The translations under genes were made by a program, and so were the position numbers. The notes under the pieces were generated by a model. It worked only from the letters and a program-made list of their open reading frames with translations. It was not told the origin of the DNA and made no database searches. From Paenibacillus sp. 1P03SA (GTDB lineage Bacteria; Bacillota; Bacilli; Paenibacillales; NBRC-103111): a stretch of DNA of 40,000 nt. The DNA lies in NCBI RefSeq assembly GCF_047238265.1, contig NZ_JBDFMM010000001.1:4931245-4971244 (forward strand), read 5' to 3'. This document shows positions 1 to 40,000 of this stretch, piece by piece; the first letter of the stretch is position 1, and every line of letters starts with the position of its first letter.

Positions 1-1028
1 CGAAGAGTTACCGATGAGAACATCTTAAGTTGTACCGGACTACCGAATAGAATTTGTAATGTTTCCAAACAATCTTCGGTCACAGTTGCAGAAAGTAGTA
101 ACGTACGGAATGGAGTAACTGAATGACGCAACATCATTTTACGCCATCCTGCAAGTTCTTGAAATGCAGGACGAAACCCCTCACCCCAGCCAGAAACAAT
201 ATGCGCTTCATCAATGACTAACATCTTGAAATAACCACGCTCAGCAGCAATCTGCAACGAATAATCTAAAGATTCAAGAACACTTTCTGGAGAGGCAAAT
301 ACGATACGCTGCGTTCCATTCATTATCGATTCTTGAATTTCTTTATTTTCTCTTTGACGTGAACTACTGGAAAAATATGCAGATGGCCGATTAATCAGTG
401 GCATTAATGCACGTTCCTGATCCAAAGCTAGTGCAACGGTTGGAACTACGACGACCGTAACGCCTTCTTGTCTTGAGAACAGGAGCGCTGGCAATTGTCC
501 ACACAAACTTTTTCCAGTTCCAGTAGGAAGGTTTAATAATATTGTTGCATCTTGAGGTGAAGTAAGCACAGTGCGCACTGCAGCACGCTGTGCATTACAT
601 CTGTAATTCAGTCTATTTACTTCCTTTAAAAATGGATCTCCTTCTACTTCCTTCATTTGATTACGTGGTTTCAATGCAAAAAGTGGTCTTTCAGGACCTT
701 CTTTATCGGCCTGTGGGAGCCAATTAGGCAACCAAGTCTCAGCACACAATAAATACGAATCCCGAACTTCATCCAATATAACTATTCCAACTAATTTATA
801 CATTAATTCATTTGGCCAATTGGCTCTGCGAGGGACACGCAGAAATATGCGCTCCCCTCCACTTCTTTCAGATTCATAACGTAAAACGCCCCGAATCAGT
901 GCTGCTAAATCCATCCCAATGGCACCACTCTGAATTGCTTCAACAAATCTACTAATAAAAGGATTGCTTGGTTTAAAGATTAAGTTTTCATTTAGAATCC
1001 ATTCCTGCAATTCATCAAATTCATTCAA
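1..1028 (-). CDS. RecQ-like DEAD/DEAH-box helicase, N-terminal ~342 aa only (continues beyond the window start); DpdF-like by position
   Basis: This ORF is not in the track, so I translated the minus strand by hand. A TTG start at 1028 overlaps the TGA of the upstream SNF2 gene (TTTTGA) and is preceded by GAGGAGGG. Motifs are NLPTGTGKS (Walker A), MLVIDEAHIVSGWGEGFRPAF (DEAH plus RecQ-type motif) and LLLSATV (motif III). Confidence 0.75.
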   Translation of the reverse strand, partial: MNEFDELQEWILNENLIFKPSNPFISRFVEAIQSGAIGMDLAALIRGVLRYESERSGGERIFLRVPRRANWPNELMYKLVGIVILDEVRDSYLLCAETWLPNWLPQADKEGPERPLFALKPRNQMKEVEGDPFLKEVNRLNYRCNAQRAAVRTVLTSPQDATILLNLPTGTGKSLCGQLPALLFSRQEGVTVVVVPTVALALDQERALMPLINRPSAYFSSSSRQRENKEIQESIMNGTQRIVFASPESVLESLDYSLQIAAERGYFKMLVIDEAHIVSGWGEGFRPAFQELAGWRKMMLRHSVTPFRTLLLSATVTEDCLETLQILFGSPVQLKMFSSVTL

Positions 1029-4537: not shown

Positions 4538-5284
4538 TCAAACCCCGCGTTTGTTACCCCACAACAAAGTGTGTAACTGCGGGAGAACTTTAACTTGTCT
4601 CAAATCCGAGGAAGCCATGACTTGATTAATCAACCATTCATACTTCTCTAATAAAGAAAGCACTAATCCTTCTCTATCTACTGTCGTTACATCGCTATTA
4701 CCCACCTGCAAAACTAGCCTCATGTGAGGATACCGTTTATGAACTTGTACAGCATACTGAAGATCATCTTCATCAAAAATGACTACTTTAATACATATTT
4801 CATTAGAACTATTGTTCAAGTTCTCGATAACCTCGTCTAATTTAACCCAATCGGTTATCATTCCTGAACTTGGTGCTTTCGGGGAAATCGTCAAATCATC
4901 AATATCTGCCATCCACTCTTGCCATCTGCTTCCTTGTGTCTCTAATCCAACTCGAATCCCTTGGTCATGAAGGAGATCCACTAAGTATCCAATATTCTTT
5001 AAAAGTGCTGGATTACCACCAGAGATTGTTACATGCTCAAAAGTGGTTCCACCAAGAGTCTTCAATTCATCCCAAACCATTTGGGCAGATAATTGTTTAA
5101 TTTCATTCTTTGCAGAACCATCCCATGTAAAGGAAGAATCACACCATGAACAGGAATAGTCACAGCCGGCTGTTCGAACAAACATTGTTTTTTGTCCAAT
5201 CACCAGACCTTCTCCCTGAACGGTTGGACCGAATATTTCCAGCACCGGGATGGGCTTTTCCTTATAAGTCAATCTGCCATCCAC
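4538..5284 (-). CDS. queE: 7-carboxy-7-deazaguanine synthase QueE (radical SAM)
   Basis: The CDYSCSWCD (CxxxCxxC) cluster motif sits after GPTVQGEGLVIGQKTMFVRTAG. Length of 248 aa is typical of Bacillus-type QueE. The GTG start overlaps the end of queD. Confidence 0.9.
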   Translation of the reverse strand: MDGRLTYKEKPIPVLEIFGPTVQGEGLVIGQKTMFVRTAGCDYSCSWCDSSFTWDGSAKNEIKQLSAQMVWDELKTLGGTTFEHVTISGGNPALLKNIGYLVDLLHDQGIRVGLETQGSRWQEWMADIDDLTISPKAPSSGMITDWVKLDEVIENLNNSSNEICIKVVIFDEDDLQYAVQVHKRYPHMRLVLQVGNSDVTTVDREGLVLSLLEKYEWLINQVMASSDLRQVKVLPQLHTLLWGNKRGV

Positions 5285-5760
5285 TCCCGTCTTGCTTCGG
5301 CACAGCTGGTTGGTGTTTCAAATAACCGAACAAATTCAGTTCTTGCATCCACGTCTTTTGATGAGTATTTATCAGTAGTTAGCGCTGCTTCCATCTGCTC
5401 ATAAAGCCAAACAACCAAGTTTTCAGCAGTCGTATTCATTAACGGCAACGTCTCATTTAAATATCTGTGGTCTAAGTATGGCTCTATTTGCTCACGCCAA
5501 ATTGTTTTTATCATTCCAAAATCTATCGTCATGCCAATTTCATTTGTATATCCACTTACTCCAAAAACAACTTTATAGGTGTGACCATGTAGATTTTTAC
5601 ATTTGCCCTCATATGCATGTAAGTGATGCGCCGCGTCAAAAGTAAATTCTTTACTGACTAATACTCTGCGCTGATGATATTTCAACTGTTCTTGAGTAAT
5701 ATCCTCTTTAAACTTTTGCAATGCATCTACAATAACGAATTGCCCTGGTATTTTGTTCAT
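5269..5760 (-). CDS. queD: 6-carboxy-5,6,7,8-tetrahydropterin synthase QueD
   Basis: Motifs FTFDAAHHL and CKNLHGHTYKV are the PTPS/QueD zinc-site histidines. I place the start at the internal ATG 5760 (MNKIPGQF), which has GGAG 9 nt upstream. The longer track ORF would overlap queC by 76 nt. Confidence 0.88.
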   Translation of the reverse strand: MNKIPGQFVIVDALQKFKEDITQEQLKYHQRRVLVSKEFTFDAAHHLHAYEGKCKNLHGHTYKVVFGVSGYTNEIGMTIDFGMIKTIWREQIEPYLDHRYLNETLPLMNTTAENLVVWLYEQMEAALTTDKYSSKDVDARTEFVRLFETPTSCAEARREWMAD

Positions 5761-5765
5761 AACAA

Positions 5766-6428
5766 CTACTCCGAATTTTTTCCCTGTAAAAATTTTTCCA
5801 AACCAGCTTTTCTCAACTGGCAAGCAGGACAAGTGCCACATCCATCACCGATAATACCGTTGTAGCAAGTCAAAGTCTTTTGGCGTACAAATTCAAACGC
5901 TCCTAATTGATCTGCCATTTCCCACGTCTCTGCTTTATTAATCCACATCAACGGAGTATGAATTATAAAATTATGATCCATCGCTAAATTTAACGTCACA
6001 TTTAGGGATTTGATGAAATCATCCCGGCAGTCAGGGTATCCACTAAAATCTGTCTCGCAGACGCCCGTTACAATATGTCTAGCATCTACTCCTTTAGCAA
6101 ATACCGCGGCGAAACTTAAAAACAAATGATTACGTCCTTCCACAAATGTGCTCGGAAGTTCACCATCATTATGAACAATTTCGAGGTCATTACGTGTCAG
6201 AGAATTCTGAGTTAGTTGACCGAGCAAGCTCATATCAAGTAACGTCCACTTTACTCCAAGTTCATCAGCGATTTGTTTAGCACATTCAATTTCTAAAGCA
6301 TGCCTTTGTCCATAATTAAAGGTGATTGCTTCAACTTCGTCAAAGTGCTTCATTGCCCAAAACAAAGAAGTTGTACTATCTTGACCGCCACTAAAAACTA
6401 CAACGGCTTTTCTGTTTTTTTGTTCCAT
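5766..6428 (-). CDS. queC: 7-cyano-7-deazaguanine (preQ0) synthase QueC
   Basis: [14 protein letters not shown] is the PP-loop ATP pyrophosphatase motif, and the C-terminal [10 protein letters not shown] is the zinc motif. I prefer the ATG at 6428 (MEQKNRK) by analogy with Bacillus QueC. The GTG at 6440 is the alternative. Confidence 0.9.
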
Positions 6429-6494
6429 AATCTTACCCACTTTCTCACCATTCTCCCTTAATGATAACAGATGTACTATTTTATCGAAAGTTGC

Positions 6495-9400
6495 CTATTT
6501 ATCGTTGCTCACAACTAATCTTATCTCTACAACTTCAAACAGATTAGGAAACTTCTCTTTAATCTCTTCTAACAGACGCTTACCTTGAACTGGTGGAAGG
6601 GTACTATAACCATTCTCAATGAGTAATCTAATATGTCTTTTTATAGAAGGCCTGATTTGAGAATTGTGATTTATTCTTTCGAGCAGGTGATAGATATTAC
6701 CAACGTCTTCATATTCAAGATCATTCCGAATGACTTCAAGAAGGTTTATCTGGATTTGCTCATGTTGAAGTTTTCTTTCGACCAGTTCTTTTAATTCATA
6801 AAAGTCCATCGACTGCCACTCATCAATTACGGAATTGAGTTCAGATTCAATCTGTGAACCCTCCATTAAGAGTTCAACACATGCAATCATTTTTAATCGA
6901 AGTTCCTTAATTGGCTTTAGAATTTTTAATTGGACTTGAAGATTTAACAAATACTTAACTATAGTGCGCGGAGTTAAAGCAAGACAGTTTTTTAGATTTG
7001 ATACCTTTTGCATATTAGCTAGAATTATCCTTTTTTTCTTCTCTAATTCAGACAAAGAGAACTTACCATCATCAACGATTTCTACTCCGACTTCTTCATA
7101 ATTCGCATGCATACCACACTCAATAAGGAAGTCAACTACTTCCATTAAATCCTGGTCAAATTGCTTTAATAACTGATCAACTTCATTGTTTAAAGCAAAG
7201 AACCTATTAAATTGGATGACTAGCTCTGGTTGTTCTAATTGTTGTTCAAGCAGCGTATAGTTCACAAGGTCTTGTTGTCGAAGAAATTTCTTTTCGTTAA
7301 AAGTACAGATTTGGTCTGCAAGTTTAATCCATTCTGCTCTACTAGAACCCATTAGAAATGGTATCATCATTAGTCTTTTTTCAATTGATTGCCTAAAGCT
7401 TTGATGAAGCAGTTCAAGATAACCACTATAGCTTTCTTTTAAATTTGATAGGAATTCCTTCAAGGTTAGATTGCCTATTATATAGCTTTCTAACGTTTTA
7501 GAAGGTACAAGATTTAATAACCATAGATCAAATTCTTCATTCGCTAATACATCATCATCTGGTGTCTCATAAAAATTTTCACGTAACAAATACCAATCTG
7601 AATAACATTCATCAAGCAACGACATTAAGTCTTTGTTGAAGGGAGATTTTCCTTTCGCATCGTAAGTCCATGAAGATTCACTATATATTCTGGCTTGTTG
7701 CGCCCAATTCCTCATTCCATACACAAATACAGGTAACTTCAACCCAAGAGCCTGCTCGAGAGATTCAAACCATAATTTATGAATATTTTCTGCCTGATAT
7801 ATCCACTTTGAAGTTTCATATTCATTTGAGATTTTTTGAAATATATTTAATTTTTCTGAATACTTCATCGTTTGAAAGTTGGATATTTGAATACCAATGT
7901 AATCACGATTTACATTTATAGAGAACTCATCATTTTTGTCTAGTTTAATAGGATATCGCGTTCGATGTACAACTTCATTCCATTGAATAACTGAGGAGGT
8001 TCGAGATGTGAATGCGCGGTTCATATGTACCCCCTTTATAACATCATGTACCAGAGCAGCCACCCCAGATCTAACAGGTAATAATAGTTCATCGTTTACT
8101 TCTTTTCCTTCTATCCAATCTCTGACTACCTCTTTTTCATTGAAGACAGTATTATCATTTTTATACTCTATATGAAGCGGTTGTTCTTCCCTTGTATTAC
8201 CTGCTGCTATCTTGTTTAACTTAATAGATATTTGAGTTTCGCTATAACCAAAGTGCTTTAACAAAGGTTCAGAAATTATCATTTGACTTGCATCTTCAGA
8301 CGCATACCATTCAGATAGTGTTTTAATAAACATATCTTCATGCTCCGCAAACATTTCCCTGCGTATAAGTGGAAGGACTCTACTAACATGCTTTTTACCT
8401 TTTAGAAAGAAGCGTAAGATTTCCTTGCTATTCAGTATCATGTAACGTAATTTACCTTTTCCTATAGGGATAGCATCGTATGTGCGTCTTAGCATATGAC
8501 TATTAAATGGGAGCACCTGAACTCCAAGATAATTAAAATTAGAATCTTTATTGCTTTCCTCTGGCAGAATACCAGAACATTGTTTGAAGTGCGGACATTT
8601 GAGAGAGCAGTTAAATCCCTGTGTCGCTTTCAGTTGGGTAAGATAATTTGCTATATAGGGTACTACTTGCTTACGATCAAGATTGAAAAAGTCTTTCCCC
8701 GACTCATCCGATAGCCATAGCTTTTTTACACGATCATTAATAGTATCAAGATTCTGTATTCTTTGTGTGAGACTAAACCCCTTCTCTGTATCCTGAACTG
8801 CACCAGGTGTCAAACCAATGACCACATCCCAGTTTCCTTCTTCTAATGTGATAAGTTGATCAAGGATACTGGTTGCGTAAATATTTACTGATTGAACTAG
8901 ATCATCAATCAACAACAAAGGACGGATTCCTCTGCTTTTTATCTGCAAAGACATTTGTTTAAAAAGGGTTCCGATATCTTGTCCCTCAAAAAGAAAATGG
9001 TCCAACTGCCGCGAGAGATTTTGTCGAAATGCTGCGTATTCTAATGGAATATGAAGGGTTGTATTGGCGAGCAAAGTTTCAAACTGTTCCCGATGCAGCA
9101 CCTCTAATGGATTTTTAATTTTTCCTCGTTTAACTTGTGATGTAAAATCAATAATATTTTGCTCAATCACCGGCCTTAACAATAGTGCTGTTGGAACGAT
9201 CTCCTCATCGGACTCCATAGCTTCCGCTAATGTTGTCCAAACCATTTGGTTAACAAGCGTTATAGGCTTTTTAAGCAAAATCCCCCACCTGTCTTCATCA
9301 ATACAAACATCTAGGGATAAATTCAGTGTGTCTAAACATTTTTTGATTAGGGTCTGAGGATTTAGTTCTGTTCGTGAGATTCGTATCACGGGTCTATCTG

Positions 9401-9692
9401 ATACCTCCACTAGCCACTTATCTTTTAACCAACGAAGCAATTCGGATTTACCCGATCCTGTCGAACCGAATACTAAATAAACTCTGTTGCCGCTAGCATC
9501 AGTTTCTTGAAGTTCTTCCAACAGTTCATCTTCCGTAACCTCAGCGACTAACTGACTACCATTATACCTATGCATTACTTGCGGAAAATGTGTTTTTCTG
9601 AAGTATTCAGGTGATAGATCATATCGCTCATCTGCAGTACCAGCTAAAAGTTTAAGCGAATTTTTGTTGAGACAAGGAAGCATTAGTATCAC
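6495..9692 (-). CDS. Large P-loop NTPase of unknown family (1065 aa)
   Basis: Track ORF. Walker A is LVFGSTGSGKSE (aa 73-84) and the Walker-B-like motif is RPLLLIDDLVQ (~aa 257-267). The remaining ~750 aa look helical with no motif I recognise. The start is uncertain (GTG 9692 or ATG 9683), and either choice overlaps the upstream 258-aa ORF. Confidence 0.7.
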   Translation of the reverse strand: MILMLPCLNKNSLKLLAGTADERYDLSPEYFRKTHFPQVMHRYNGSQLVAEVTEDELLEELQETDASGNRVYLVFGSTGSGKSELLRWLKDKWLVEVSDRPVIRISRTELNPQTLIKKCLDTLNLSLDVCIDEDRWGILLKKPITLVNQMVWTTLAEAMESDEEIVPTALLLRPVIEQNIIDFTSQVKRGKIKNPLEVLHREQFETLLANTTLHIPLEYAAFRQNLSRQLDHFLFEGQDIGTLFKQMSLQIKSRGIRPLLLIDDLVQSVNIYATSILDQLITLEEGNWDVVIGLTPGAVQDTEKGFSLTQRIQNLDTINDRVKKLWLSDESGKDFFNLDRKQVVPYIANYLTQLKATQGFNCSLKCPHFKQCSGILPEESNKDSNFNYLGVQVLPFNSHMLRRTYDAIPIGKGKLRYMILNSKEILRFFLKGKKHVSRVLPLIRREMFAEHEDMFIKTLSEWYASEDASQMIISEPLLKHFGYSETQISIKLNKIAAGNTREEQPLHIEYKNDNTVFNEKEVVRDWIEGKEVNDELLLPVRSGVAALVHDVIKGVHMNRAFTSRTSSVIQWNEVVHRTRYPIKLDKNDEFSINVNRDYIGIQISNFQTMKYSEKLNIFQKISNEYETSKWIYQAENIHKLWFESLEQALGLKLPVFVYGMRNWAQQARIYSESSWTYDAKGKSPFNKDLMSLLDECYSDWYLLRENFYETPDDDVLANEEFDLWLLNLVPSKTLESYIIGNLTLKEFLSNLKESYSGYLELLHQSFRQSIEKRLMMIPFLMGSSRAEWIKLADQICTFNEKKFLRQQDLVNYTLLEQQLEQPELVIQFNRFFALNNEVDQLLKQFDQDLMEVVDFLIECGMHANYEEVGVEIVDDGKFSLSELEKKKRIILANMQKVSNLKNCLALTPRTIVKYLLNLQVQLKILKPIKELRLKMIACVELLMEGSQIESELNSVIDEWQSMDFYELKELVERKLQHEQIQINLLEVIRNDLEYEDVGNIYHLLERINHNSQIRPSIKRHIRLLIENGYSTLPPVQGKRLLEEIKEKFPNLFEVVEIRLVVSNDK

Positions 9693-10428
9693 ATCTCCCC
9701 TCTACTTTAATCCAGTTCAACGTATTTTTTGGCCCATAGGATTTATATGGAAGGTCTTGCACATAACTCAATTCTATTTCCCCTGCCTCAGCTAATCCCA
9801 TCAATGAAAAAATAATCGCCTTGTATATTTTCCCTTCTGATGTCAAGCACGGAATAACTGGATGAATAAATTTTTCACAGAATAGATGTAACCCACCCTC
9901 CCATGTCTCACTTCTTTCAATGATACTTTTTATTAATGAAAGTTGTGGAAGGGCGTAAAAACCGGAGTAGACACGTCTTCCCAATCCCCAACATTCCATC
10001 ATTCGCTTCCATGCATTTATTTTTTCATGACCAACTACTGTCTTAATTAACTGACTATTAACTTGGTAATGAATATTGCTCAAAAATAGTCTATCTGGCT
10101 TTACAAATAACTGTTCAAAAATAGTCGCAAATATATGATCAAGAGAATCGCTAGGTATAGTATCAGAATTCGAGATTTTCCTTAACCTTAGAAAAATTTC
10201 TTTGTTAGTCCAAGCTTTATTTTGTGACACATAAAATTGTGCTTTGTCTTTATATATGAATTGCAAATCTTCTAATACCGTCAAGGCACATTCGATTAAA
10301 GAGGTAATGTCACCCTCTTCCCTATACTGGAATTTTGTTTTCAACCCATTTGTATCCAATCCAGGCTTAGTTCTTAGTTCCTCATAAATTACTTCAATTT
10401 CTGGCCCGTAACACATCTGGAACAACAT
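9652..10428 (-). CDS. Hypothetical protein (258 aa), island-specific
   Basis: Track ORF. There is a strong RBS, GGAGGG, 6 nt before the ATG at 10428. It overlaps the 3' end of dpdA by 35 nt and the NTPase start by ~40 nt, suggesting operonic coupling. No motif recognised. Confidence 0.6.
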   Translation of the reverse strand: MLFQMCYGPEIEVIYEELRTKPGLDTNGLKTKFQYREEGDITSLIECALTVLEDLQFIYKDKAQFYVSQNKAWTNKEIFLRLRKISNSDTIPSDSLDHIFATIFEQLFVKPDRLFLSNIHYQVNSQLIKTVVGHEKINAWKRMMECWGLGRRVYSGFYALPQLSLIKSIIERSETWEGGLHLFCEKFIHPVIPCLTSEGKIYKAIIFSLMGLAEAGEIELSYVQDLPYKSYGPKNTLNWIKVEGRCDTNASLSQQKFA

Positions 10429-11326
10429 GTTCGTCCCTCCTCTGCTTATTTTCTAAAATATCTTTAAATGTTCTTGATAAGTGATAATAATTGTGGACTG
10501 ATCTTAACTTCATATATTCTCTTGGTGAAGGAATAAAAATCTGTTTTGCATTAATTTTACACACAGGGCATTCACAATGAAGTGGGTTTTCCAATCGAGG
10601 GCTTGTGGGTTTTGCTCTGGATTCTGATAGAAAAAAAGTTCTAAATGGTCTACTGTAAAATACCTGAAAGAATGCAGCGGCCATTGTTGGTCGAGTTGAA
10701 TCAAATGACTTTACTCCAATATCAACCATCGCATTAAGTTGAGGAATCCCTGTTACTCCAAAGACATGAAGGTTTGCAGATCCAACAACATCTGAAGCCC
10801 TCCTAATCATTTCAATTTGTTCAGTCTGATGTTTAAATAACAAGGACCCAATCCCAAAATTTTTATATCCCATCTTAATTAACTCATAGGCTGAAAACTC
10901 TATACTAAATTGGTCATAACCTTGTATCACTCCCATTGGTTCAACAAATTTAGGAAGCTTATACCTATTAAAGAGATTTAAATATTCGTAGGCATTAAAT
11001 AGTGTTCTTTCAATGGCCATGTAACGTTCAGATAAAGAATTCTTATTCAGCAGAGGTTCATCAAAATGAACCATTTGAATTTTGGCCGTTGAATCACAAT
11101 CTTCCAAGATTGATTGTTGAATATCAAAAACATCTTTTAGCGGGGGCCTACTCTTTTGTTTAACATAAAAAACTGATCCACAATCTAGTATTAACTTTTT
11201 GGGTTTGTTTCTATACTTCTTTACTCCTCCTCTATTGTCTGGAATTGCACTTATTAACACCGAACACGTAGGAAAGTAATCACAAAAAATTGCATCACTA
11301 TGTGACCAACCAATATAAAAATCCAC
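10394..11326 (-). CDS. dpdA: DpdA-type (TGT-fold) 7-deazaguanine DNA transglycosylase, 310 aa
   Basis: TGT hallmarks, in order, are LILDCGS (Asp region), GVIQGYD, LHVFGV and SFDSTRP. The zinc site is HCECPVC...VHNYYH (CxCxxC...H). It lacks a PUA or tRNA-binding extension and sits next to queCDE. The GTG start has AAGGAGGG upstream. Confidence 0.78.
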   Translation of the reverse strand: MDFYIGWSHSDAIFCDYFPTCSVLISAIPDNRGGVKKYRNKPKKLILDCGSVFYVKQKSRPPLKDVFDIQQSILEDCDSTAKIQMVHFDEPLLNKNSLSERYMAIERTLFNAYEYLNLFNRYKLPKFVEPMGVIQGYDQFSIEFSAYELIKMGYKNFGIGSLLFKHQTEQIEMIRRASDVVGSANLHVFGVTGIPQLNAMVDIGVKSFDSTRPTMAAAFFQVFYSRPFRTFFLSESRAKPTSPRLENPLHCECPVCKINAKQIFIPSPREYMKLRSVHNYYHLSRTFKDILENKQRRDEHVVPDVLRARN

Positions 11327-12275: not shown

Positions 12276-14312
12276 CTATTTATTCCACCGTTTCTTCAAT
12301 TCCTGAATCTGACTGTAGTATACATGAGTATTATGAAAGCCTCTTCGTCTGTTCCTATTGTTACCTCTGAATACTATCACATCAATTCCAATTTCCCTAC
12401 ATATATTACAACTGCATTGTTCCCATGGTCGTTCAGATAAAACCTCTCTATACAAATCCTCATGAACATCGCGCTTTTCGCCAAGTATTTTGTCATATTC
12501 CAGTATAGCTTCAAGTGTAGAATCTAACTCCCTTGTCCCCGTGCTGAATTCCCTAAGAGCACCTAATGCCTCTTGTTCAAGCCTTCTATATTCCACAAAC
12601 TCTATTTCATCACTATTTTGCAACATTTTTTTCACTCTTCCAGATGTTTCTTTCGCTTCTGGAATTCTAATTGCTGTATAGTGTTTACCACTCAAAGAGT
12701 GGTAATTATGTCCTGTTCCTAACCATGCCCTTCTCAACGGTGAAGAAGAGTCAAATGATGTTACACCCAATTTATGAAAAGACTCCATTGTTCTCACATC
12801 TCGCGCAACCCCGAACAAGTGCATTCGAAACGTAGGACTTGGAATAATAGGAGCTATCTCTTTTAGAATTTCATATATTTTTTCAGACTGTTCTCTGGCT
12901 AAACCTCCTAAGGCAATATAGTCATAACCTAATCCAATAAGATACTCGACCGCTCTTCGGAAAGAGGGTGGGTCCCAGCCTTGGACTATTCCTATCGGAT
13001 GGAACTGATAGTTCTTTGTTTCTCTATTTTCCCTATACATACGTAAAAATTCTTCCGCCATCGTAAGGGTTAGTTCATAGCGCTGATTTCGAGTATTTTC
13101 ATCTTTCTGGAAGGGTCCCACTATTAGATGGTCAATAGATACACCATAATCAAAACCTAAAGTATGATAGTAATCCATAATTTCTTCGGTCGTATAAGGT
13201 GGTACATCTTTATCAATATAACTAAAAGCGCCACAATCACCCATAATAGGATACTCTCTAGGTAGTTTATAAAAATCGTGCAAGCCCATATCTTTAATCA
13301 TCTGATTTTTTTGTTTGGTGGCACTATCAATATTCACTTTAGAAACGAGCAACCCATCAAACTGAGGTCTATCAAAAATCTGATGAGCATACACATCATT
13401 TTCTAATGGATTTCTATTTTTTTCTGAGAAATCAGCCATAAAATCATAATTAGGATCTACCCTATCATCATTTTCTGGAAGATAGAACCTTGGTTCCTCG
13501 ATGCAATTTATAGCAACCAACTCATCTGGTACAGGGAACATTTCATTGTAAAACTTTAATAGATCTTCTTTATCCGATGAGTCACTAAATAGCTCAGGTT
13601 GTTTAATTGAAGCAATTGAATCTAAAATAAACGATCTAATTTGATCAGGATGATGGGCTATTGTATCCCATTTCTGATCAATATTAGCTGTAATAGTACT
13701 CCTCAATAAATGTGCGAAAAGATACCCTTTAATACCTATCAATCCATATTTAAATGTTTTAGCTTCTTTTTCTCCAATAGTTAATACATGATAATCGTCC
13801 CAATTTAGAATTCTAGAACGACTGGATGCTCCAGCAAAAAAGATAGCTTTTTGATTTTTTTTAAGCTTTAGTGGCCACTCTACAGCTTGTAGATACTTAT
13901 CTCCGAGCAAGAAAAAAATAATATCGTATTCAGCAACCTTTTTTTGTAGTGCCTGTGTGATTTTGAGTTCACGCGCCCATTTTTTTATAGTCTGCGAATC
14001 CATTGTATTAAAAGTCACTTCATAGGGAACAATTTGCGCATCTTCATTCAGAAGGCCATAACCCGCTGAAATTATGCAAAGGTCAATATTTCCACCCTTT
14101 TGCCTATATTCTTTAATACCAGTCATTAGCGCAAGATGCTGACTACCTGTGTACATTTCATCAGCACGTTCTTTGAATTCCAATAATTCTTCTTCTCTTT
14201 GTTTTAATACATCTTTATTCTTGAAATCATCAAATACAAGCTGATTTATCGGTTTATGCAACTTCTCTCCAGTACAAGAAGTGACAACAAGAATACGTTT
14301 CGACAAAAACAT
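12276..14312 (-). CDS. Fusion protein with an unknown ~340-aa N-terminal domain plus a C-terminal TGT/DpdA-type transglycosylase domain
   Basis: The C-terminal half has IMGDCGAFSY, GIVQGWD, MHLFGVARD, SFDSSSP and the zinc site CSCNIC...FHNTH, in the same motif order as the 310-aa DpdA. The N-terminal half has VVTSCTGEK ... IISAGYGLL ... VPYEVTF. I prefer the ATG at 14312 as start. The GTG at 14330 directly abuts the upstream terminator and has no RBS. Confidence 0.8.
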   Translation of the reverse strand: MFLSKRILVVTSCTGEKLHKPINQLVFDDFKNKDVLKQREEELLEFKERADEMYTGSQHLALMTGIKEYRQKGGNIDLCIISAGYGLLNEDAQIVPYEVTFNTMDSQTIKKWARELKITQALQKKVAEYDIIFFLLGDKYLQAVEWPLKLKKNQKAIFFAGASSRSRILNWDDYHVLTIGEKEAKTFKYGLIGIKGYLFAHLLRSTITANIDQKWDTIAHHPDQIRSFILDSIASIKQPELFSDSSDKEDLLKFYNEMFPVPDELVAINCIEEPRFYLPENDDRVDPNYDFMADFSEKNRNPLENDVYAHQIFDRPQFDGLLVSKVNIDSATKQKNQMIKDMGLHDFYKLPREYPIMGDCGAFSYIDKDVPPYTTEEIMDYYHTLGFDYGVSIDHLIVGPFQKDENTRNQRYELTLTMAEEFLRMYRENRETKNYQFHPIGIVQGWDPPSFRRAVEYLIGLGYDYIALGGLAREQSEKIYEILKEIAPIIPSPTFRMHLFGVARDVRTMESFHKLGVTSFDSSSPLRRAWLGTGHNYHSLSGKHYTAIRIPEAKETSGRVKKMLQNSDEIEFVEYRRLEQEALGALREFSTGTRELDSTLEAILEYDKILGEKRDVHEDLYREVLSERPWEQCSCNICREIGIDVIVFRGNNRNRRRGFHNTHVYYSQIQELKKRWNK

Positions 14313-14330
14313 CCCATCCTTTATTAACAC

Positions 14331-14360
14331 AATATAAAATAGGGCGAGAGCGCCCTATTT
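14331..14360 (-). terminator. Rho-independent terminator after the transporter gene
   Basis: On the minus strand the sequence is AAATAGGGCG-CTCT-CGCCCTATTT followed by TATATT. Confidence 0.6.
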
Positions 14361-14381: not shown

Positions 14382-14900
14382 TTAAAAAAATTTTTTTACA
14401 ATCATTGCAGCGAATAATTGAACCAATGTTTTAACAATGATTTGACCGACAATAGCCAAAAACACAGCATTCCATGCAAGAATATTGGCTCCCAATGGGG
14501 ATAGACCAACAACAACAAAAATAATACTATCTAATATTCCTCCAACAATCCCGCTGTATGCTACCCTCATATGAAAAGGTAGTTTAAGACGTGAATAGAT
14601 TTCGGTATCTGTGGTCTCAGATACTGCGAATGTAATAATTGAAGCAAACACAATCCAAAGTGTGTCACCAAGTAAATATGATGTTAATGCTGATAAAACC
14701 ATTGCTATTAAAATAAATAAATAAGTCTTCTGCCGACCAACATAATTTTGTACAAAATCGCGGAATATAAATGTTGCCCCTATTATAAAAGTCCCTGCCG
14801 GAATAATGAAAGGACCGATAAAAAACGGGGGTACTCCTGCTGTCACGACATTTGATGAAATAATAGCTATTAAATAAGCTATAATTGTTAAGTATTTAAT
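14382..14900 (-). CDS. yhhQ: YhhQ/VUT-family queuosine-precursor (preQ0/preQ1) transporter
   Basis: Polytopic membrane protein with GTFIIGATFIFRDFVQNYVG and ETTDTEIY-type motifs recalled from YhhQ. The track ORF starts at GTG 14846. However, the in-frame upstream codons encode a first TM segment (KYLTIIAYLIAIISSNVV), and AGAGGTGA lies 7 nt before an ATT at 14900, so the 5' end is uncertain. Confidence 0.72.
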   Translation of the reverse strand: MKYLTIIAYLIAIISSNVVTAGVPPFFIGPFIIPAGTFIIGATFIFRDFVQNYVGRQKTYLFILIAMVLSALTSYLLGDTLWIVFASIITFAVSETTDTEIYSRLKLPFHMRVAYSGIVGGILDSIIFVVVGLSPLGANILAWNAVFLAIVGQIIVKTLVQLFAAMIVKKFF

Positions 14901-21906: not shown

Positions 21907-23139
21907 TTATTGGAAAGTTACTTCCATTTGGTTATGCGTATGACTCAGCAGTTGAGATGCCGCGGATTTTTGATTCGATTGGGATTGGAAGCCTGTCAGA
22001 GTACGCGCTTCAGCTTCAGCCTGCTGCTTCGGTTGTCCGTTTACGAACTCGCCTTCGTACAGAAGCTTTCCGCTGGCATCGTACAAACGACCGTAGCCTT
22101 GTGCAAGGTTTTTACGGAATCCGCCTTCATAGATGACTTTTCCCTTCTCGTTGTATTCCGTTCCGAAGCCTTCACGCTTGCCGTTTTTATACATACCGAC
22201 ATATTTCCAGCCGTCCGACCAATGGAAGACACCCGCGCACTCAATGCCTCCTTTGGAGAAGAAGCCTTCGAACTTGCTTCCGTCCGCCCAGTTGATTTTG
22301 CCGACGCCGTGGAATTCGTCTTTATCGAAGAAACCGACATACTTGTTATAACCGGTAATGCTGCCCGGCGGTTCGCCGCAAGGTTCCCACGCCCAGTAGT
22401 AGGTGCCGTAGCCCTGCTTTTTACCCGCTTTCCACAGACCGTCGTATTCCAGATGCTTATCGGCGTAATACGATTTGCCTTGTCCGTCGAATTTGTTCGC
22501 TTTCCAGTTACCGTCATAACGGAGCACGCCATTCGGGTCGTAGTACTTGCCTTTGCCTTCAAACTTGCTGTTTACCATATACCCGTCGTAGAATACCTTA
22601 CCGTTCGGGTAGAAGAGCTTGATGTAACCGGTGTAACCTTGATTCTCCGCCTTCAGCAATTTCTGAGCTTGTGGGGATTGTGTCAGCGTACCTGTGTAGA
22701 GGGTTTCCAGCACATCCGTAAGCAGGGTATCATTCAAGGAAATGAGTGCATTCTCCCCGTCTACTTTCAGCTTGCGTCCCGTCAGGTCCGCGAATGCCTG
22801 CAGGTTGAGCTTGTTCCCGCTTTGAAGAACGGCGGCACCCGCATTGACCGTCTCGCCATTCACTACAAAAGAACTGGAGCCGGATACCAGCTCGATTTTG
22901 GAGCCGCCTTTGGAAGCGATCCAGCCTTTACCGTATACGTTTTCCTGCACCGTGTAGCCGAGACTGCCAAGAACCGGCGCCAAGTCCACATAAGCTGTTT
23001 CTCCTGAAATTTGAGGTTCCGCCGACAGTCCGATTGCCTTGTCGTTGACTTCTAACTGCGTTCCAGAGGCTGCGGAAGCCGCAAGCGGAAGCAGGAACAA
23101 AGCCAGCATCAGAGTCAATCCGTAAACTAACTTTTTCAT
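21907..23139 (-). CDS. Secreted protein with a signal peptide, a copper-amine-oxidase-N-like stalk domain and MORN repeats
   Basis: MKKLVYGLTLMLALFLLPLAASAAS is the signal peptide. Repeated Y(D/E)G.W...K..G.G units follow, e.g. YDGNWKANKFDGQGKSYY. GGGAGGG lies 6 nt before the ATG at 23139. Confidence 0.8.
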   Translation of the reverse strand: MKKLVYGLTLMLALFLLPLAASAASGTQLEVNDKAIGLSAEPQISGETAYVDLAPVLGSLGYTVQENVYGKGWIASKGGSKIELVSGSSSFVVNGETVNAGAAVLQSGNKLNLQAFADLTGRKLKVDGENALISLNDTLLTDVLETLYTGTLTQSPQAQKLLKAENQGYTGYIKLFYPNGKVFYDGYMVNSKFEGKGKYYDPNGVLRYDGNWKANKFDGQGKSYYADKHLEYDGLWKAGKKQGYGTYYWAWEPCGEPPGSITGYNKYVGFFDKDEFHGVGKINWADGSKFEGFFSKGGIECAGVFHWSDGWKYVGMYKNGKREGFGTEYNEKGKVIYEGGFRKNLAQGYGRLYDASGKLLYEGEFVNGQPKQQAEAEARTLTGFQSQSNQKSAASQLLSHTHNQMEVTFQ

Positions 23140-23451
23140 TTCTCGCCCTCCCAGATACAAATCTTTTCTGTTCTACTTTACGATACATAATGTAACTTGT
23201 AAATAGGTTATTTGAATTATTGATACAAAATGTTTCAAAAATAGAGTAGAACTCATTTCCTGGTACCTGCCGCCCTGCGAATAGCCCTTTCGTTTAAGGT
23301 CATACTAAGCCAAATTGCTCTGTTTTTCCTTCTTTGAAAACCGCCATCCTAGCAATTTCGTTCTTAAAATTCCGGCTTCTTATGCTTTCTTATTAAGTTT
23401 ATAAAGAAATAATTTTTCAGAGAAATTTCGGCGTATTGGAGGGTTTCGTGA

Positions 23452-23604
23452 ATGAGTATGATTGAGGCATTTATCCGGGCACATTGGATTCCGATAGTGC
23501 TGGTAATCGGCTGTTTATATGCCGTCTATCTTGTATACAGCAAAAAAAACGAGCTCCAACTGTATTGGCTGAACAAAAGGGAAGCGAAAAAGCGCCGGTC
23601 ATAA
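23452..23604 (+). CDS. Small hypothetical membrane protein (50 aa)
   Basis: Not in the track because it is under 60 aa. GGAGG lies 9 nt before the ATG. The product is MSMIEAFIRAHWIPIVLVIGCLYAVYLVYSKKNELQLYWLNKREAKKRRS, with one TM segment and a basic tail. Confidence 0.45.
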   Translation: MSMIEAFIRAHWIPIVLVIGCLYAVYLVYSKKNELQLYWLNKREAKKRRS

Positions 23605-23854
23605 GCCGGACCTCTCCGATATCCTTTACAATCTTTTTAAATGAAGGAAAACGATCTCCCTGCATGCGGGCTGAATGTATACAAACAGGCCATTTTTCCG
23701 CACCGTGCGAAGCTTCAAGCGCGCAGTACTCGGCGTCGCATGACGTTGGTCAACCTTTCGATATGCCCCCCTTTGCACACCTACAGAGACGTAAATGGAG
23801 ATACGGTAAAAGACAGCAACCACATACATGTATTCTTCCCCTGGCCTGTGAAAA

Positions 23855-23900
23855 AGTAAAAAACGCACGGTTCTTCCGAAGAAGATCCGTGCGTTTTATT
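23855..23900. terminator. Bidirectional rho-independent terminator; ends the pur operon transcript on the minus strand
   Basis: AAAACGCACGG...CCGTGCGTTTT with an inner TCTTC/GAAGA stem. T-runs follow on both strands. Confidence 0.7.
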
Positions 23901-24047
23901 TGGTTAAACCGCTGAAACCAAAAACTGTCCGAGCCCAAGCAAAAACCGGAGTGGAACAATTGCCTACATCGGTATCGGCCTGGAGCGGCGCCGTCTATAT
24001 GCCGGCCAGCTCGGCGATGGTGGCGGATTGCGAGGAACCATCATCCT

Positions 24048-38394: not shown

Positions 38395-38448
38395 ACTGCA
38401 AGAGACACAAACATAAGGCACCCCCTTCCGGGATCCCCTCGCTTCGCT

Positions 38449-38516
38449 CTCGTAGTCCAAAAATTTACGGCTTTTGGGTAGAAACTTTCGGGCCATATCC
38501 CCGATGATTATACGAG
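38449..38516 (-). promoter_or_regulatory. Purine riboswitch aptamer, guanine class
   Basis: The minus strand reads CTCGTATAATCATCGGGGATATGGCCCGAAAGTTTCTACCCAAAAGCCGTAAATTTTTGGACTACGAG. This shows the P1 CTCGTA/TACGAG stem, the conserved TATAAT...GGATATGGC...GTTTCTACC...CCGTAAAT blocks, and a C at the discriminator position (GGACTACGAG). Confidence 0.9.
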
Positions 38517-38530
38517 ATTGTAAACAATTA

Positions 38531-38612
38531 TATTTACGTGTTTTGTCAGGTATTGTCGCTCCTCTAGTGTACCAGTTACCTTTTTGCCTGTCAAACGAAA
38601 TAACGAACATTC
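38531..38612 (-). promoter_or_regulatory. pur operon sigma-A promoter flanked by PurBox-like sites (PurR operator)
   Basis: On the minus strand, TTGACA (38594-38589), a 17-nt spacer, then TACACT (38571-38566). A good PurBox-like AATAACGAACATT lies on the plus strand at 38599-38611. A weaker AAACACGTAAATA lies on the minus strand at 38544-38532. Confidence 0.55.
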
Positions 38613-39180: not shown

Positions 39181-39297
39181 GCTTGGCAACGTCCTACTCT
39201 CCCAGGACCCTTCGGTCCAAGTACCATCGGCGCTGGAAGGCTTAACGGTCGTGTTCGGGATGGGTACGCGTGGTTCCCTTCCGCCATCGTCACCAAA
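39181..39297 (-). rRNA. rrf: 5S ribosomal RNA
   Basis: The minus strand reads TTTGGTGACGATGGCGGAAGGGAACCACGCGTACCCATCCCGAACACG...GAGAGTAGGACGTTGCCAAGC, a 117-nt canonical Firmicutes 5S. Confidence 0.93.

Positions 39298-39427: not shown

Positions 39428-40000
<573 letters not shown>

What the first reader, a model, noticed from the sequence alone, without database searches (positions are those of the whole stretch)
12276..14330. Second TGT/DpdA-type transglycosylase fused to an unknown ~340-aa N-terminal domain
Seen: the C-terminal ~340 aa carry every TGT-fold hallmark (IMGDCGAFSY, GIVQGWD, HLFGVARD, FDSSSP, CSCNIC...H). They are clearly paralogous to, but divergent from, the 310-aa DpdA 1 kb downstream. 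The N-terminal half (VVTSCTGEK, IISAGYGLL, VPYEVTF) has no counterpart in classical Tgt or DpdA as I recall them. It weakly reminds me of small DUF domains with an SA(K/G)YGL...PY motif.

Inference: two transglycosylases in one island suggest one of three things. They may have two sequence specificities. They may act on two substrates (DNA versus RNA, or insertion versus exchange of a further-modified base). Or the N-terminal domain supplies the accessory function that DpdB provides in the canonical system.
Basis: partly seen in the sequence, partly recalled or inferred. Interest (0 to 1): 0.75.

Follow-up and report, generated by a model that had tools for sequence, protein, structure and literature searches.

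The report
DpdC-like domain fused to DpdA
This 684-aa gene is the island's canonical DNA-guanine transglycosylase DpdA joined to a DpdC-like (DUF6884) domain, a widespread but apparently undescribed form of the Dpd DNA-modification system that lacks the DpdB ATPase thought to be essential.

Summary
The ORF is real (12276-14330, minus strand; likely start ATG 14312, 678 aa) and is not a frameshift artefact. Residues 281-677 are the canonical bacterial DpdA (NCBIfam equivalog 448 bits against a cut-off of 200; E 3e-91 to crystallised Salmonella DpdA, 7UI4), with all catalytic Asp and zinc ligands. The 310-aa TGT downstream is the divergent one.

The "unknown" N-terminus is a DUF6884 domain, the family that contains DpdC. 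A profile comparison with genuine DpdC gives 99% probability. The gene order matches classical dpdC-dpdA, a split version exists, and haloarchaea carry the reverse-order fusion.

The fusion occurs in at least 80 species across about 9 phyla. None of 80 loci has DpdB or a separate DpdC. About half carry a second small TGT.

Most likely it is a single-polypeptide modification enzyme: DpdA inserts preQ0, and the N-domain acts on the flipped 7-deazaguanine, probably producing ADG. That second step is unproven. The domain is only 16-20% identical to validated DpdC and closer to generic DUF6884 proteins.

Verdict: new variant of a known system, moderate interest.

The parts
12276..14330 (-). Maximal ORF of the DpdC-like::DpdA fusion protein (684 codons from GTG 14330; probable real start ATG 14312, 678 aa; stop codon 12276-12278)
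13686..14297 (-). DUF6884 / DpdC-like domain core (residues 12-215). Invariant C19, K23 (CxxxK), Y60, G62, H65, S88-A-G-x-G92, P102-Y103, T106-F107, G143, Y146, K201-G202
   Evidence: Pfam PF21818 50.7 bits; PADLOC DpdC 3e-11; hhalign vs DpdC family 99.0%, E 7e-18; AF2 pLDDT 93.6; YaaA 5CAJ best solved fold; invariant residues
13515..13685 (-). Helical extension / variable linker between the two domains (residues 216-272)
   Evidence: Poorly conserved in alignment A1 but modelled as helices, block-mean pLDDT 67-98 over residues 211-280 (92-98 to residue 240)
12279..13514 (-). Canonical bacterial DpdA (DNA-guanine transglycosylase) domain, residues 273-684. Catalytic D365, D400, D527; Q450; G475-G476; F506; zinc ligands C639, C641, C644, H666
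   Evidence: NCBIfam NF041059 448 bits, model positions 2-405 of 406; 7UI4 E 3e-91; residue mapping using PMC10164549
14382..14846 (-). VUT/YhhQ-type queuosine-precursor (preQ0) transporter gene, first gene of the island
   Evidence: Pfam Vut_1 2.9e-15; TIGR00697
11424..12218 (-). p264: conserved unknown protein between the fusion gene and TGT2. Weak DndB-family (C-terminal helical region) similarity and no DGQxR ATPase motif
   Evidence: 6 of 13 family members hit Pfam DndB, best 3e-6; not significant against DpdB profiles
10394..11326 (-). TGT2: compact 310-aa TGT-fold paralogue, below the DpdA cut-off, with all catalytic Asp and the Cys3-His zinc site retained
9652..10428 (-). p258: conserved unknown protein. 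Its gene overlaps TGT2 by 35 nt and p1065 by 41 nt
6495..9692 (-). p1065: diverged DpdH-like P-loop NTPase
   Evidence: NCBIfam DpdH 34.5 bits, N-terminus only; hhalign vs DpdH family 96.6%, E 4.9e-10, 524 columns
4538..6440 (-). queC (5766-6440), queD (5269-5841) and queE (4538-5284): preQ0 biosynthesis genes
   Evidence: ORFs; family assignment against annotated queC/D/E of L001
1025..4285 (-). DpdE (SNF2-type helicase of the Dpd restriction module)
   Evidence: NCBIfam NF041062 929 bits vs cut-off 500
3..1028 (-). DpdF-like gene, cut off by the window edge
   Evidence: phmmer vs Enterobacter DpdF E 3.7e-33

Best explanation
The gene encodes a two-domain DNA-modification enzyme of a DpdB-less variant of the Dpd (7-deazaguanine) restriction-modification system. 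The C-terminal domain is a canonical bacterial DpdA. It removes a target guanine from duplex DNA through a covalent Asp527-DNA intermediate, with Asp365 as general acid/base, and inserts preQ0. The preQ0 comes from the island's own QueC/D/E or is imported by the VUT transporter. The N-terminal DUF6884 domain is the counterpart of DpdC, tethered to DpdA. It binds the DNA, takes the flipped 7-deazaguanine into its conserved Cys19/Lys23/Tyr60/His65/Ser88 pocket, and most likely hydrates the nitrile of dPreQ0 to give the amide dADG. Insertion and maturation of the mark would then happen on one polypeptide. The mark protects host DNA from the island's restriction genes (DpdE, DpdF, DpdH-like and others).

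Shown here: domain identities, conservation of the catalytic residues, spread of the fusion, and absence of DpdB and separate DpdC.
Inferred: preQ0 as substrate, dADG as product, the Cys-based chemistry, and independence from DpdB.
For: DpdA part:
- NF041059 equivalog 448 bits against a cut-off of 200, covering the model end to end.
- E 3e-91 to crystallised S. Montevideo DpdA 7UI4.
- Equivalents of the experimentally essential Asp95 and Asp256, plus Asp130, the Gly-Gly pair and the zinc site, are all present and invariant.

N-domain:
- Pfam DUF6884 above the gathering threshold and PADLOC DpdC models at 3e-11.
- hhalign of 16 fused N-domains against 16 stand-alone DpdC: 99.0%, E 7e-18, 209 columns.
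- Shared invariant C, K, Y, G, SAGxG, Y and T positions.
- DpdC proteins themselves carry PF21818 (PMC12235509).
- The CxxxK and LSAxxG motifs are the family's putative active site (PMC11701544).

Genomic logic:
- The classical order is dpdC-dpdA-dpdB, the same order as the two halves of the fusion.
- A split version exists with a 253-aa DUF6884 gene directly upstream of an unfused 418-aa DpdA, plus TGT2 and p258.
- Haloarchaea carry the reverse-order fusion.
- 0 of 80 fused loci have a separate DpdC. Four of the five classical loci have an upstream DpdC-like gene by profile, and all five have DpdB.
- 49 of 80 fused loci carry Dpd restriction genes and 39 of 80 carry preQ0 genes.

DpdC is known to convert dPreQ0-DNA to dADG-DNA independently of DpdA/B (PMC10164549).
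Against: - The N-domain is only 16-20% identical to validated-type DpdC. It is 32-40% identical to stand-alone DUF6884 proteins, some of which sit next to unrelated DNA enzymes (an AGOG-like glycosylase, a GIY-YIG nuclease) with no preQ0 genes in view. Those proteins share all 21 signature residues examined.
- The domain differs from DpdC at Q64-H65 (DpdC: H-W) and K201-G202 (DpdC: N-I/V).
- PADLOC DpdC models align only to its first 120-170 residues.
- No catalytic mechanism for DpdC has been published in the papers I could read, so the shared residues cannot be tied to nitrile hydration.
- In the only reconstituted system DpdA needs the DpdB ATPase (PMC10164549). This model does not explain how the fused enzyme would manage without it.
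- No DNA-modification measurement exists for any organism carrying the fusion, as far as I could find.
Confidence: 0.6

Rival explanations
1. The N-domain is mainly a DNA-handling accessory (duplex binding, base flipping or local opening) that replaces DpdB for the attached DpdA. It does not convert preQ0 to ADG, so the final mark is dPreQ0.
For: A 9-member DpdB profile finds nothing at E<=1 in the 80 fused loci or in the window, whereas all 5 unfused loci have 1-2 DpdB genes. DpdB is required for DpdA activity in Salmonella (PMC10164549). The fold is YaaA-like, and YaaA and DUF6884 are described as DNA-binding, with a predicted base-flipping mode (PMC11701544). The domain's closest relatives are generic DUF6884 proteins rather than DpdC.
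Against: The domain has no NTPase motif or NTPase family hit, so it cannot supply ATP hydrolysis. In Salmonella, DpdC does not substitute for DpdB (PMC10164549). The strictly invariant Cys/Lys/Tyr/His/Ser set suggests catalysis rather than binding alone. Separate DpdC is also missing from all fused loci, which a pure DpdB replacement does not explain.
Confidence: 0.2
2. The N-domain is a generic lesion or abasic-site handling module. It shields or processes the abasic or covalent intermediates that base-removing enzymes create, and it is unrelated to the chemistry of the 7-substituent.
For: Stand-alone proteins with the identical residue signature are paired with other base-removing or DNA-nicking enzymes (AGOG-like glycosylase, GIY-YIG nuclease). 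A DUF6884 member (B. subtilis YfjM) was reported among interactors of abasic and RNA-base lesions (PMC11701544). DpdA catalysis passes through a covalent enzyme-DNA intermediate after base loss (PMC10164549). That a Cys/Lys pair could react with abasic sites is my own inference.
Against: It does not explain the complementary distribution with DpdC or the detectable homology to DpdC, which has a demonstrated dPreQ0-to-dADG activity (PMC10164549). The two non-Dpd contexts come from single short metagenomic contigs, and the AGOG hit is marked weak.
Confidence: 0.12
3. The ORF is an artefact (two genes joined by a sequencing error), or it is a tRNA-modifying Tgt with an RNA-binding extension.
For: Source databases label some homologues 'queuine tRNA-ribosyltransferase'.
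Against: More than 120 cluster representatives and 80 species genomes encode the same architecture at full length. tRNA-TGT equivalog models score far below their cut-offs (TIGR00432: 29.8 vs 350), while DpdA passes. The genomic context is Dpd restriction genes plus preQ0 genes.
Confidence: 0.02

Closest known systems
Salmonella enterica serovar Montevideo Dpd modification module (DpdA + DpdB + DpdC; PMC10164549, structure 7UI4)
   Same: The DpdA domain is homologous over its whole length, with the same catalytic Asp residues and zinc site. A DpdC-family domain is present. There are preQ0 genes and DpdE/F/H-type restriction genes nearby. The gene order dpdC then dpdA is preserved.
   Different: DpdC and DpdA are one polypeptide. 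There is no DpdB ATPase, no DpdD and no DpdI. His181 is replaced by Gln. The DpdC-like part is only 16-20% identical to enterobacterial DpdC. Extra genes are present (TGT2, p264, p258).
DpdC (DUF328/DUF6884-type protein that converts dPreQ0-DNA to dADG-DNA)
   Same: Profile-level homology (99%, E 7e-18). Shared CxxxK, YxG, SAGxG, (P)YxxTF and G..Y motifs. Association with DpdA.
   Different: Stand-alone DpdC is about 318 aa with internal insertions and a distinct C-terminus. It has H-W and N-I/V where the fused domain has Q-H and K-G. PADLOC DpdC models cover only the first 120-170 residues of the fused domain.
Pfam DUF6884 (PF21818; e.g. B. subtilis YfjM) and E. coli YaaA (DUF328, PDB 5CAJ)
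   Same: Scores above the Pfam gathering threshold and has both hallmark motifs. YaaA is the best solved-structure match. The closest sequence relatives are stand-alone DUF6884 proteins of 220-255 aa.
   Different: Here the domain is covalently joined to a DNA transglycosylase inside a 7-deazaguanine island. Structural similarity to YaaA is remote (TM about 0.35).
Phage and viral DpdA subfamilies (DpdA1-4; PMC10516641)
   Same: TGT2 resembles them in size and fold (TM 0.55-0.71 to phage TGT-like models), and like them it has no DpdB partner.
   Different: TGT2 has almost no sequence match in 50,697 phage records (one hit, 25.6% identity, E 2e-4). It is chromosomal and translationally coupled to p258 and a DpdH-like ATPase.
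Eukaryotic tRNA-guanine transglycosylase heterodimer QTRT1/QTRT2 (my own knowledge; mouse heterodimer 7B2I appears among the TGT2 fold hits)
   Same: Two TGT-fold paralogues encoded for one function. This is a precedent for a paralogue acting as a partner subunit.
   Different: QTRT2 has lost catalytic residues, whereas TGT2 keeps them all. No interaction between TGT2 and the fusion protein has been tested.

Membership tests
Bacterial DpdA (bDpdA; NCBIfam NF041059) | Scores above the curated equivalog cut-off over the full model | tested here: met
   448.1 bits vs cut-off 200; residues 281-677 match model positions 2-405 of 406
Bacterial DpdA (bDpdA; NCBIfam NF041059) | Full-length homology to the crystallised, biochemically characterised DpdA | tested here: met
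   7UI4 E 3e-91; query 280-676 aligns to chain 24-425
Bacterial DpdA (bDpdA; NCBIfam NF041059) | Catalytic Asp95 and Asp256, base-binding Asp130, Gly206/207, and the zinc site | tested here: met
   D365, D527, D400, G475/G476, C639/C641/C644/H666, invariant in 12 fused proteins
Bacterial DpdA (bDpdA; NCBIfam NF041059) | [quoted passage not shown] | tested here: not met
   Gln450 in this protein and in all fused-clade members examined; Enterobacter DpdA has His
Bacterial DpdA (bDpdA; NCBIfam NF041059) | Works with a neighbouring DpdB (ParB-fold, DGQxR) ATPase | tested here: not met
   DpdB profile: 0 hits at E<=1 in the window and in 80 fused loci; positive control found
Bacterial DpdA (bDpdA; NCBIfam NF041059) | Exchanges guanine in DNA for preQ0 | not testable with these tools
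   Needs an enzyme assay or LC-MS of DNA
DpdC | Homology to stand-alone DpdC proteins | tested here: met
   hhalign 99.0%, E 7e-18, 209 columns; PADLOC DpdC 3e-11; BLASTP 2e-7
DpdC | Full-length match and subfamily-specific residues of validated-type DpdC | tested here: not met
   PADLOC models cover only profile positions 3-117 of 319 or 3-167 of 299; 16-20% identity; Q-H and K-G instead of H-W and N-I/V
DpdC | Encoded next to DpdA in a dpd island, one copy per island | tested here: met
   Fused to DpdA; no second copy in 79 of 80 loci, the exception being a fragmented duplicate in L062
DpdC | Converts dPreQ0 in DNA to dADG | not testable with these tools
   Needs LC-MS of DNA from carrier strains or an in vitro assay
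DUF6884 (Pfam PF21818) | Above the gathering score, with CxxxK and LSAxxG motifs | tested here: met
   50.7 bits vs 30; C19-T-G-E-K23 and I-S88-A-G-Y-G92; motif definition from PMC11701544
DUF6884 (Pfam PF21818) | YaaA-like alpha/beta fold | tested here: inconclusive
tRNA-guanine transglycosylases (bacterial Tgt, archaeal TgtA) | Score above the equivalog cut-offs | tested here: not met
   TIGR00432 29.8 vs 350 for the fusion; TIGR00430 23.4 vs 306.75 for TGT2
bDpdA, applied to the 310-aa TGT2 | Score above the NF041059 cut-off | tested here: not met
   77.6 bits vs 200, partial match; about 22% identity to DpdA domains. It does keep the catalytic Asp residues and the zinc site and the TGT fold

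The most novel reading that the evidence does not exclude
The DUF6884::DpdA fusion defines a separate, DpdB-independent branch of 7-deazaguanine DNA modification systems. In this branch the DUF6884 domain supplies the DNA opening or base flipping that DpdB's ATPase provides elsewhere, possibly in addition to amide formation. In about half of these systems a catalytically intact second TGT, translationally coupled to p258 and a DpdH-like NTPase, performs a distinct step. That step could be acting as a heterodimer partner, providing a second sequence specificity, or removing guanine from unmodified foreign DNA as part of restriction.
Probability: 0.25. Interest if true: 0.7.

Novelty: new variant of a known kind. 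Interest (0 to 1): 0.5.

Why it matters
The only reconstituted Dpd system needs three separate proteins, and its DpdA is inactive without the DpdB ATPase. Why ATP is needed is an open question stated by its authors (PMC10164549). Here a large natural clade, mostly Cyanobacteriota and Bacillota with members in about seven further phyla, has DpdA without any DpdB and with the DpdC-type domain welded on.

That gives a direct experimental handle on three questions:
- How does a TIM-barrel transglycosylase reach a base inside duplex DNA?
- Do DpdC and DpdA work as a physical unit?
- What does the uncharacterised DUF6884 family do?

It also shows that surveys requiring dpdA plus dpdB (PMC12235509: 1 cyanobacterial and 11 Bacillota islands out of 2,335) miss this class. 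Automatic annotation as plain 'DpdA' hides the extra domain.

Tried and rejected
- **Frameshift or two-gene artefact:** rejected, because the full-length architecture is conserved in more than 120 protein clusters and 80 genomes.
- **tRNA enzyme:** rejected on the equivalog scores.
- **p264 as the missing DpdB:** it gives only weak Pfam DndB hits in 6 of 13 members, confined to the C-terminal helical region. It has no DGQxR motif. Profile comparisons with DpdB are not significant (probability 0.1). Not supported.
- **p258 as DpdG or DpdI:** not significant.
- **TGT2 as a phage-derived DpdA:** only one weak phage hit, and the fold search does not assign a subfamily.
- **TGT2 as an inactive 'reader':** not supported, because all catalytic residues are kept.
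- **Sequence-profile searches of the PDB** with the N-domain and p264 families found nothing useful.
- **Published measurements:** I found no measurement of dPreQ0 or dADG in a carrier of the fusion.
Full report
**Observation**

The window carries a low-GC island (0.33-0.41, positions 1 to about 15,000) next to sequence of 0.51-0.62 GC. All island genes are on the minus strand. The ORF 12276-14330 is uninterrupted and encodes 684 codons from a GTG. The first in-frame ATG (14312, preceded by AAGGA) gives 678 aa. That is the length of the 92%-identical Fontibacillus panacisegetis protein, and it matches the N-termini of homologues, so it is the likelier start.

**The C-terminal part is the canonical DpdA, not a 'second' one**

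- NCBIfam's DpdA equivalog (NF041059) matches residues 281-677 to model positions 2-405 of 406 at 448 bits, against a cut-off of 200. tRNA-TGT models score far below their cut-offs.
- The crystallised S. Montevideo DpdA (7UI4) aligns over chain residues 24-425 at E 3e-91.
- The residues shown or proposed to be essential in that enzyme are Asp95, Asp130, His181, Gly206/207, Leu236 and Asp256 (PMC10164549). In the fusion they correspond to D365, D400, Q450, G475/476, F506 and D527. C639/C641/C644/H666 form the zinc site. All are invariant among fused homologues.
- The one departure is Gln in place of His181.
- The 310-aa TGT at 10394-11326 reaches only 77.6 bits on the DpdA model and is about 22% identical to DpdA domains. 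It is the divergent paralogue.

**The N-terminal part is a DUF6884 / DpdC-type domain**

- Pfam DUF6884 matches residues 51-167 at 50.7 bits (gathering score 30). YaaA/DUF328 matches more weakly. PADLOC DpdC models match residues 10-167 at up to 3e-11.
- DpdC is described as a DUF328/DUF6884 protein (PMC5699537, PMC12235509). Pfam's curators give CxxxK and LSAxxG as the DUF6884 hallmarks (PMC11701544).
- In a classical Enterobacter plasmid cluster, the unnamed gene directly upstream of dpdA is DpdC (PADLOC 6e-142). With its start extended to 318 aa it shows ITTCTNGK, ILSAGLGLL and VPYKATF.
- A profile-profile comparison of 16 fused N-domains with 16 stand-alone DpdC proteins gives 99.0% probability, E 7e-18, over 209 columns.
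- An AlphaFold2 model of residues 1-280 is confident (pLDDT 93.6, pTM 0.90). Its best solved-structure match is E. coli YaaA (5CAJ; probability 1.00) but at a low TM of about 0.35.
- The conserved domain ends near residue 215. Residues 216-272 are variable in sequence but modelled as helices.

**The fusion is real, old and widespread**

- More than 120 protein clusters of 660-700 aa carry PF21818 plus PF01702 over 98% of the query. NCBI names them DpdA.
- A scan of one genome per species found 304 relatives. All 80 best loci encode the full-length fusion. They are mainly Cyanobacteriota and Bacillota, with members of Deinococcota, Planctomycetota, Pseudomonadota, Verrucomicrobiota, Chloroflexota, Myxococcota and Acidobacteriota.
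- The classical gene order dpdC-dpdA is the order of the two halves.
- A split form exists on one contig: p258, TGT2, a 253-aa DUF6884 gene (48-52% identical to the N-domain) and, directly downstream, an unfused 418-aa DpdA.
- A Haloferax plasmid carries the opposite arrangement: a 964-aa protein with the TGT part first and DUF6884 last. It is followed by a small TGT, a hypothetical protein, an ATPase and QueD.
- Fusion in both orders, plus a split form, is classic evidence that the two domains work together.

**What accompanies the fusion**

I extracted ORFs from the 80 loci and searched them with the window's proteins and with classical Dpd proteins.

| Feature within about 10 kb | Loci (of 80) |
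|---|---|
| DpdB, DpdC, DpdD or DpdI | 0 |
| at least one restriction-type Dpd gene (E, F, G, H, J, K or the DpdH-like p1065) | 49 |
| queC/D/E | 39 |
| small second TGT | 26 (24 of the 49 loci of at least 20 kb) |
| full TGT2-p258-p1065 triad, as in this window | 17 |

- The absence of DpdB and DpdC held up with more sensitive profiles: 9 DpdB sequences from gamma- and alphaproteobacteria, the DpdC family, and the N-domain family. There were no hits at E<=1 for DpdB, and no stand-alone DpdC-like ORF except a fragmented duplicate in L062.
- All five classical unfused loci examined have one or two DpdB genes, and four of them have an upstream gene that matches the DpdC profile.
- p1065 is a diverged DpdH (96.6%, E 4.9e-10, 524 columns). 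p258 and p264 could not be tied to DpdG/I or DpdB.
- In the window, TGT2 overlaps p258 by 35 nt and p258 overlaps p1065 by 41 nt. This suggests these three are made and act together.

**TGT2**

- The family (about 300 aa) is confined to Bacillota and shares contigs with the fusion gene.
- It keeps all three catalytic Asp residues, the Q-G pair, the H-x-F motif and the Cys3-His zinc site. It models confidently as a compact TGT barrel (pLDDT 92.9), with TM about 0.7 to bacterial Tgt structures and 0.55-0.71 to phage TGT-like models.
- It has essentially no phage sequence relatives.
- The small TGTs of cyanobacterial and haloarchaeal loci are separate lineages, about 20-28% identical to TGT2. A second TGT has therefore been recruited more than once. 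Its role is open.

**How it most likely works**

The DpdA domain very probably exchanges a target guanine in duplex DNA for preQ0. The preQ0 is made by the island's QueC/D/E or imported by the VUT transporter. This rests on full membership of the characterised family.

The tethered DUF6884 domain most likely does what DpdC does, which is convert dPreQ0 in DNA to dADG (PMC10164549). The support is its homology to DpdC, the shared invariant residues, the gene order, and the mutually exclusive distribution with stand-alone DpdC.

I hold this second step at moderate confidence for four reasons:
- The domain is only 16-20% identical to enterobacterial and alphaproteobacterial DpdC. It is 32-40% identical to stand-alone DUF6884 proteins, two of which sit beside an AGOG-like glycosylase or a GIY-YIG nuclease with no preQ0 genes in view.
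- Those proteins share all 21 signature residues I tabulated.
- It differs from DpdC at Q64-H65 and K201-G202.
- No DpdC mechanism is published in what I could read.

Two rivals follow. The domain may be a DNA-handling module that makes DpdB unnecessary. Or it may be a general abasic-site or lesion-handling module that accompanies base-removing enzymes. Neither excludes amide formation.

**Comparison and novelty**

This is a Dpd system by its DpdA, DpdE, DpdF, DpdH-like and preQ0 genes. Its modification module differs from the characterised one: DpdC-like and DpdA are fused, DpdB is absent, and a second TGT is often present.

The papers I could search describe DpdA, DpdB and DpdC as separate proteins and do not mention the fusion or the paired TGT. 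The largest survey required dpdA plus dpdB. It found only 1 cyanobacterial and 11 Bacillota islands among 2,335, whereas these two phyla dominate the fused loci. The 2016 paper that defined the cluster is not held, so prior mention cannot be excluded.

**Verdict**

I rate this a new variant of a known kind. The protein itself is already auto-annotated as DpdA, the domain family is catalogued, and the mechanism is largely predictable. The DpdB-less architecture and the recurrent second TGT are unexplained and experimentally tractable.

Noticed in passing
window 14334-14356 (minus strand): A GC-rich hairpin (GGGCG-CTCT-CGCCC) followed by a T-rich run lies between the VUT transporter gene and the fusion gene, about 20 nt upstream of the likely start. 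It looks like an intrinsic terminator or attenuator separating the transporter from the modification genes.
   Followed up: no
window 9652-11326: TGT2, p258 and p1065 (DpdH-like) overlap by 35 and 41 nt, which suggests translational coupling. The same three genes travel together in 17 of 80 fused loci, sometimes on the strand opposite to the fusion gene (L015, L071, L087).
   Followed up: partly
window residue Q450 of the fusion protein (about 12981-12983): All fused-clade DpdA domains have Gln where S. [quoted passage not shown] Enterobacter DpdA keeps His. This could bear on base or substrate preference.
   Followed up: partly
L086 (Haloferax alexandrinus plasmid pBNX82-4) 6805-12863: Reverse-order fusion (TGT part first, DUF6884 last; 964 aa), followed by a 344-aa small TGT, a 298-aa hypothetical protein, a 385-aa 'BREX system ATP-binding' protein and QueD. 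It is an archaeal parallel to the Bacillota module.
   Followed up: partly
L090 6001-9233 and L091 747-2149: Stand-alone DUF6884 genes with the same 21 signature residues overlap an AGOG-like glycosylase gene (weak Pfam hit) or a GIY-YIG nuclease gene. This suggests the family generally partners with enzymes that remove bases or nick DNA. PADLOC also has a DUF6884-like candidate defence model (PDC-M57A, 1e-13 to the N-domain).
   Followed up: partly
L088 3368-6779: A stand-alone DUF6884 gene (40% identical to the N-domain) sits directly after QueD and near a DndB-family gene. The contig also carries MPTase-PolyVal and DUF3768 genes, and no TGT is visible in its 10.5 kb.
   Followed up: no
L093-L096 (alphaproteobacterial plasmids): Classical unfused dpdA is flanked by two DpdB genes (dpdB-dpdA-dpdB), followed by queE-queD-queC and a VUT gene. 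The gene upstream is a short DpdC-like protein in three of the four plasmids.
   Followed up: partly
L062 8693-11530: One cyanobacterial MAG locus has a second, fragmented copy of the fusion gene (148-aa, 522-aa and 116-aa pieces) beside a 571-aa copy. This may be decay or an assembly problem.
   Followed up: no
L004-L009 versus the window: Six Paenibacillus/Fontibacillus species carry the fusion at 90-92% amino-acid identity with the same gene order. Together with the island's low GC (about 0.36 vs 0.55), this indicates recent horizontal spread among Paenibacillaceae.
   Followed up: partly
window 38433-38535, 39181-39297, 39432-40000 (minus strand): A purine riboswitch, a 5S rRNA and the 3' end of a 23S rRNA lie at the right end of the window. 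They are unrelated to the island.
   Followed up: no
window 23001-24000: A local GC dip (0.44) inside the otherwise 0.52-0.63 GC host region. Not examined.
   Followed up: no
window 14382-14846: The VUT transporter ORF is 154 aa here, against 157-186 aa in most orthologous loci. Its Pfam match starts at profile position 61, so the gene may be N-terminally shortened or its start miscalled.
   Followed up: no
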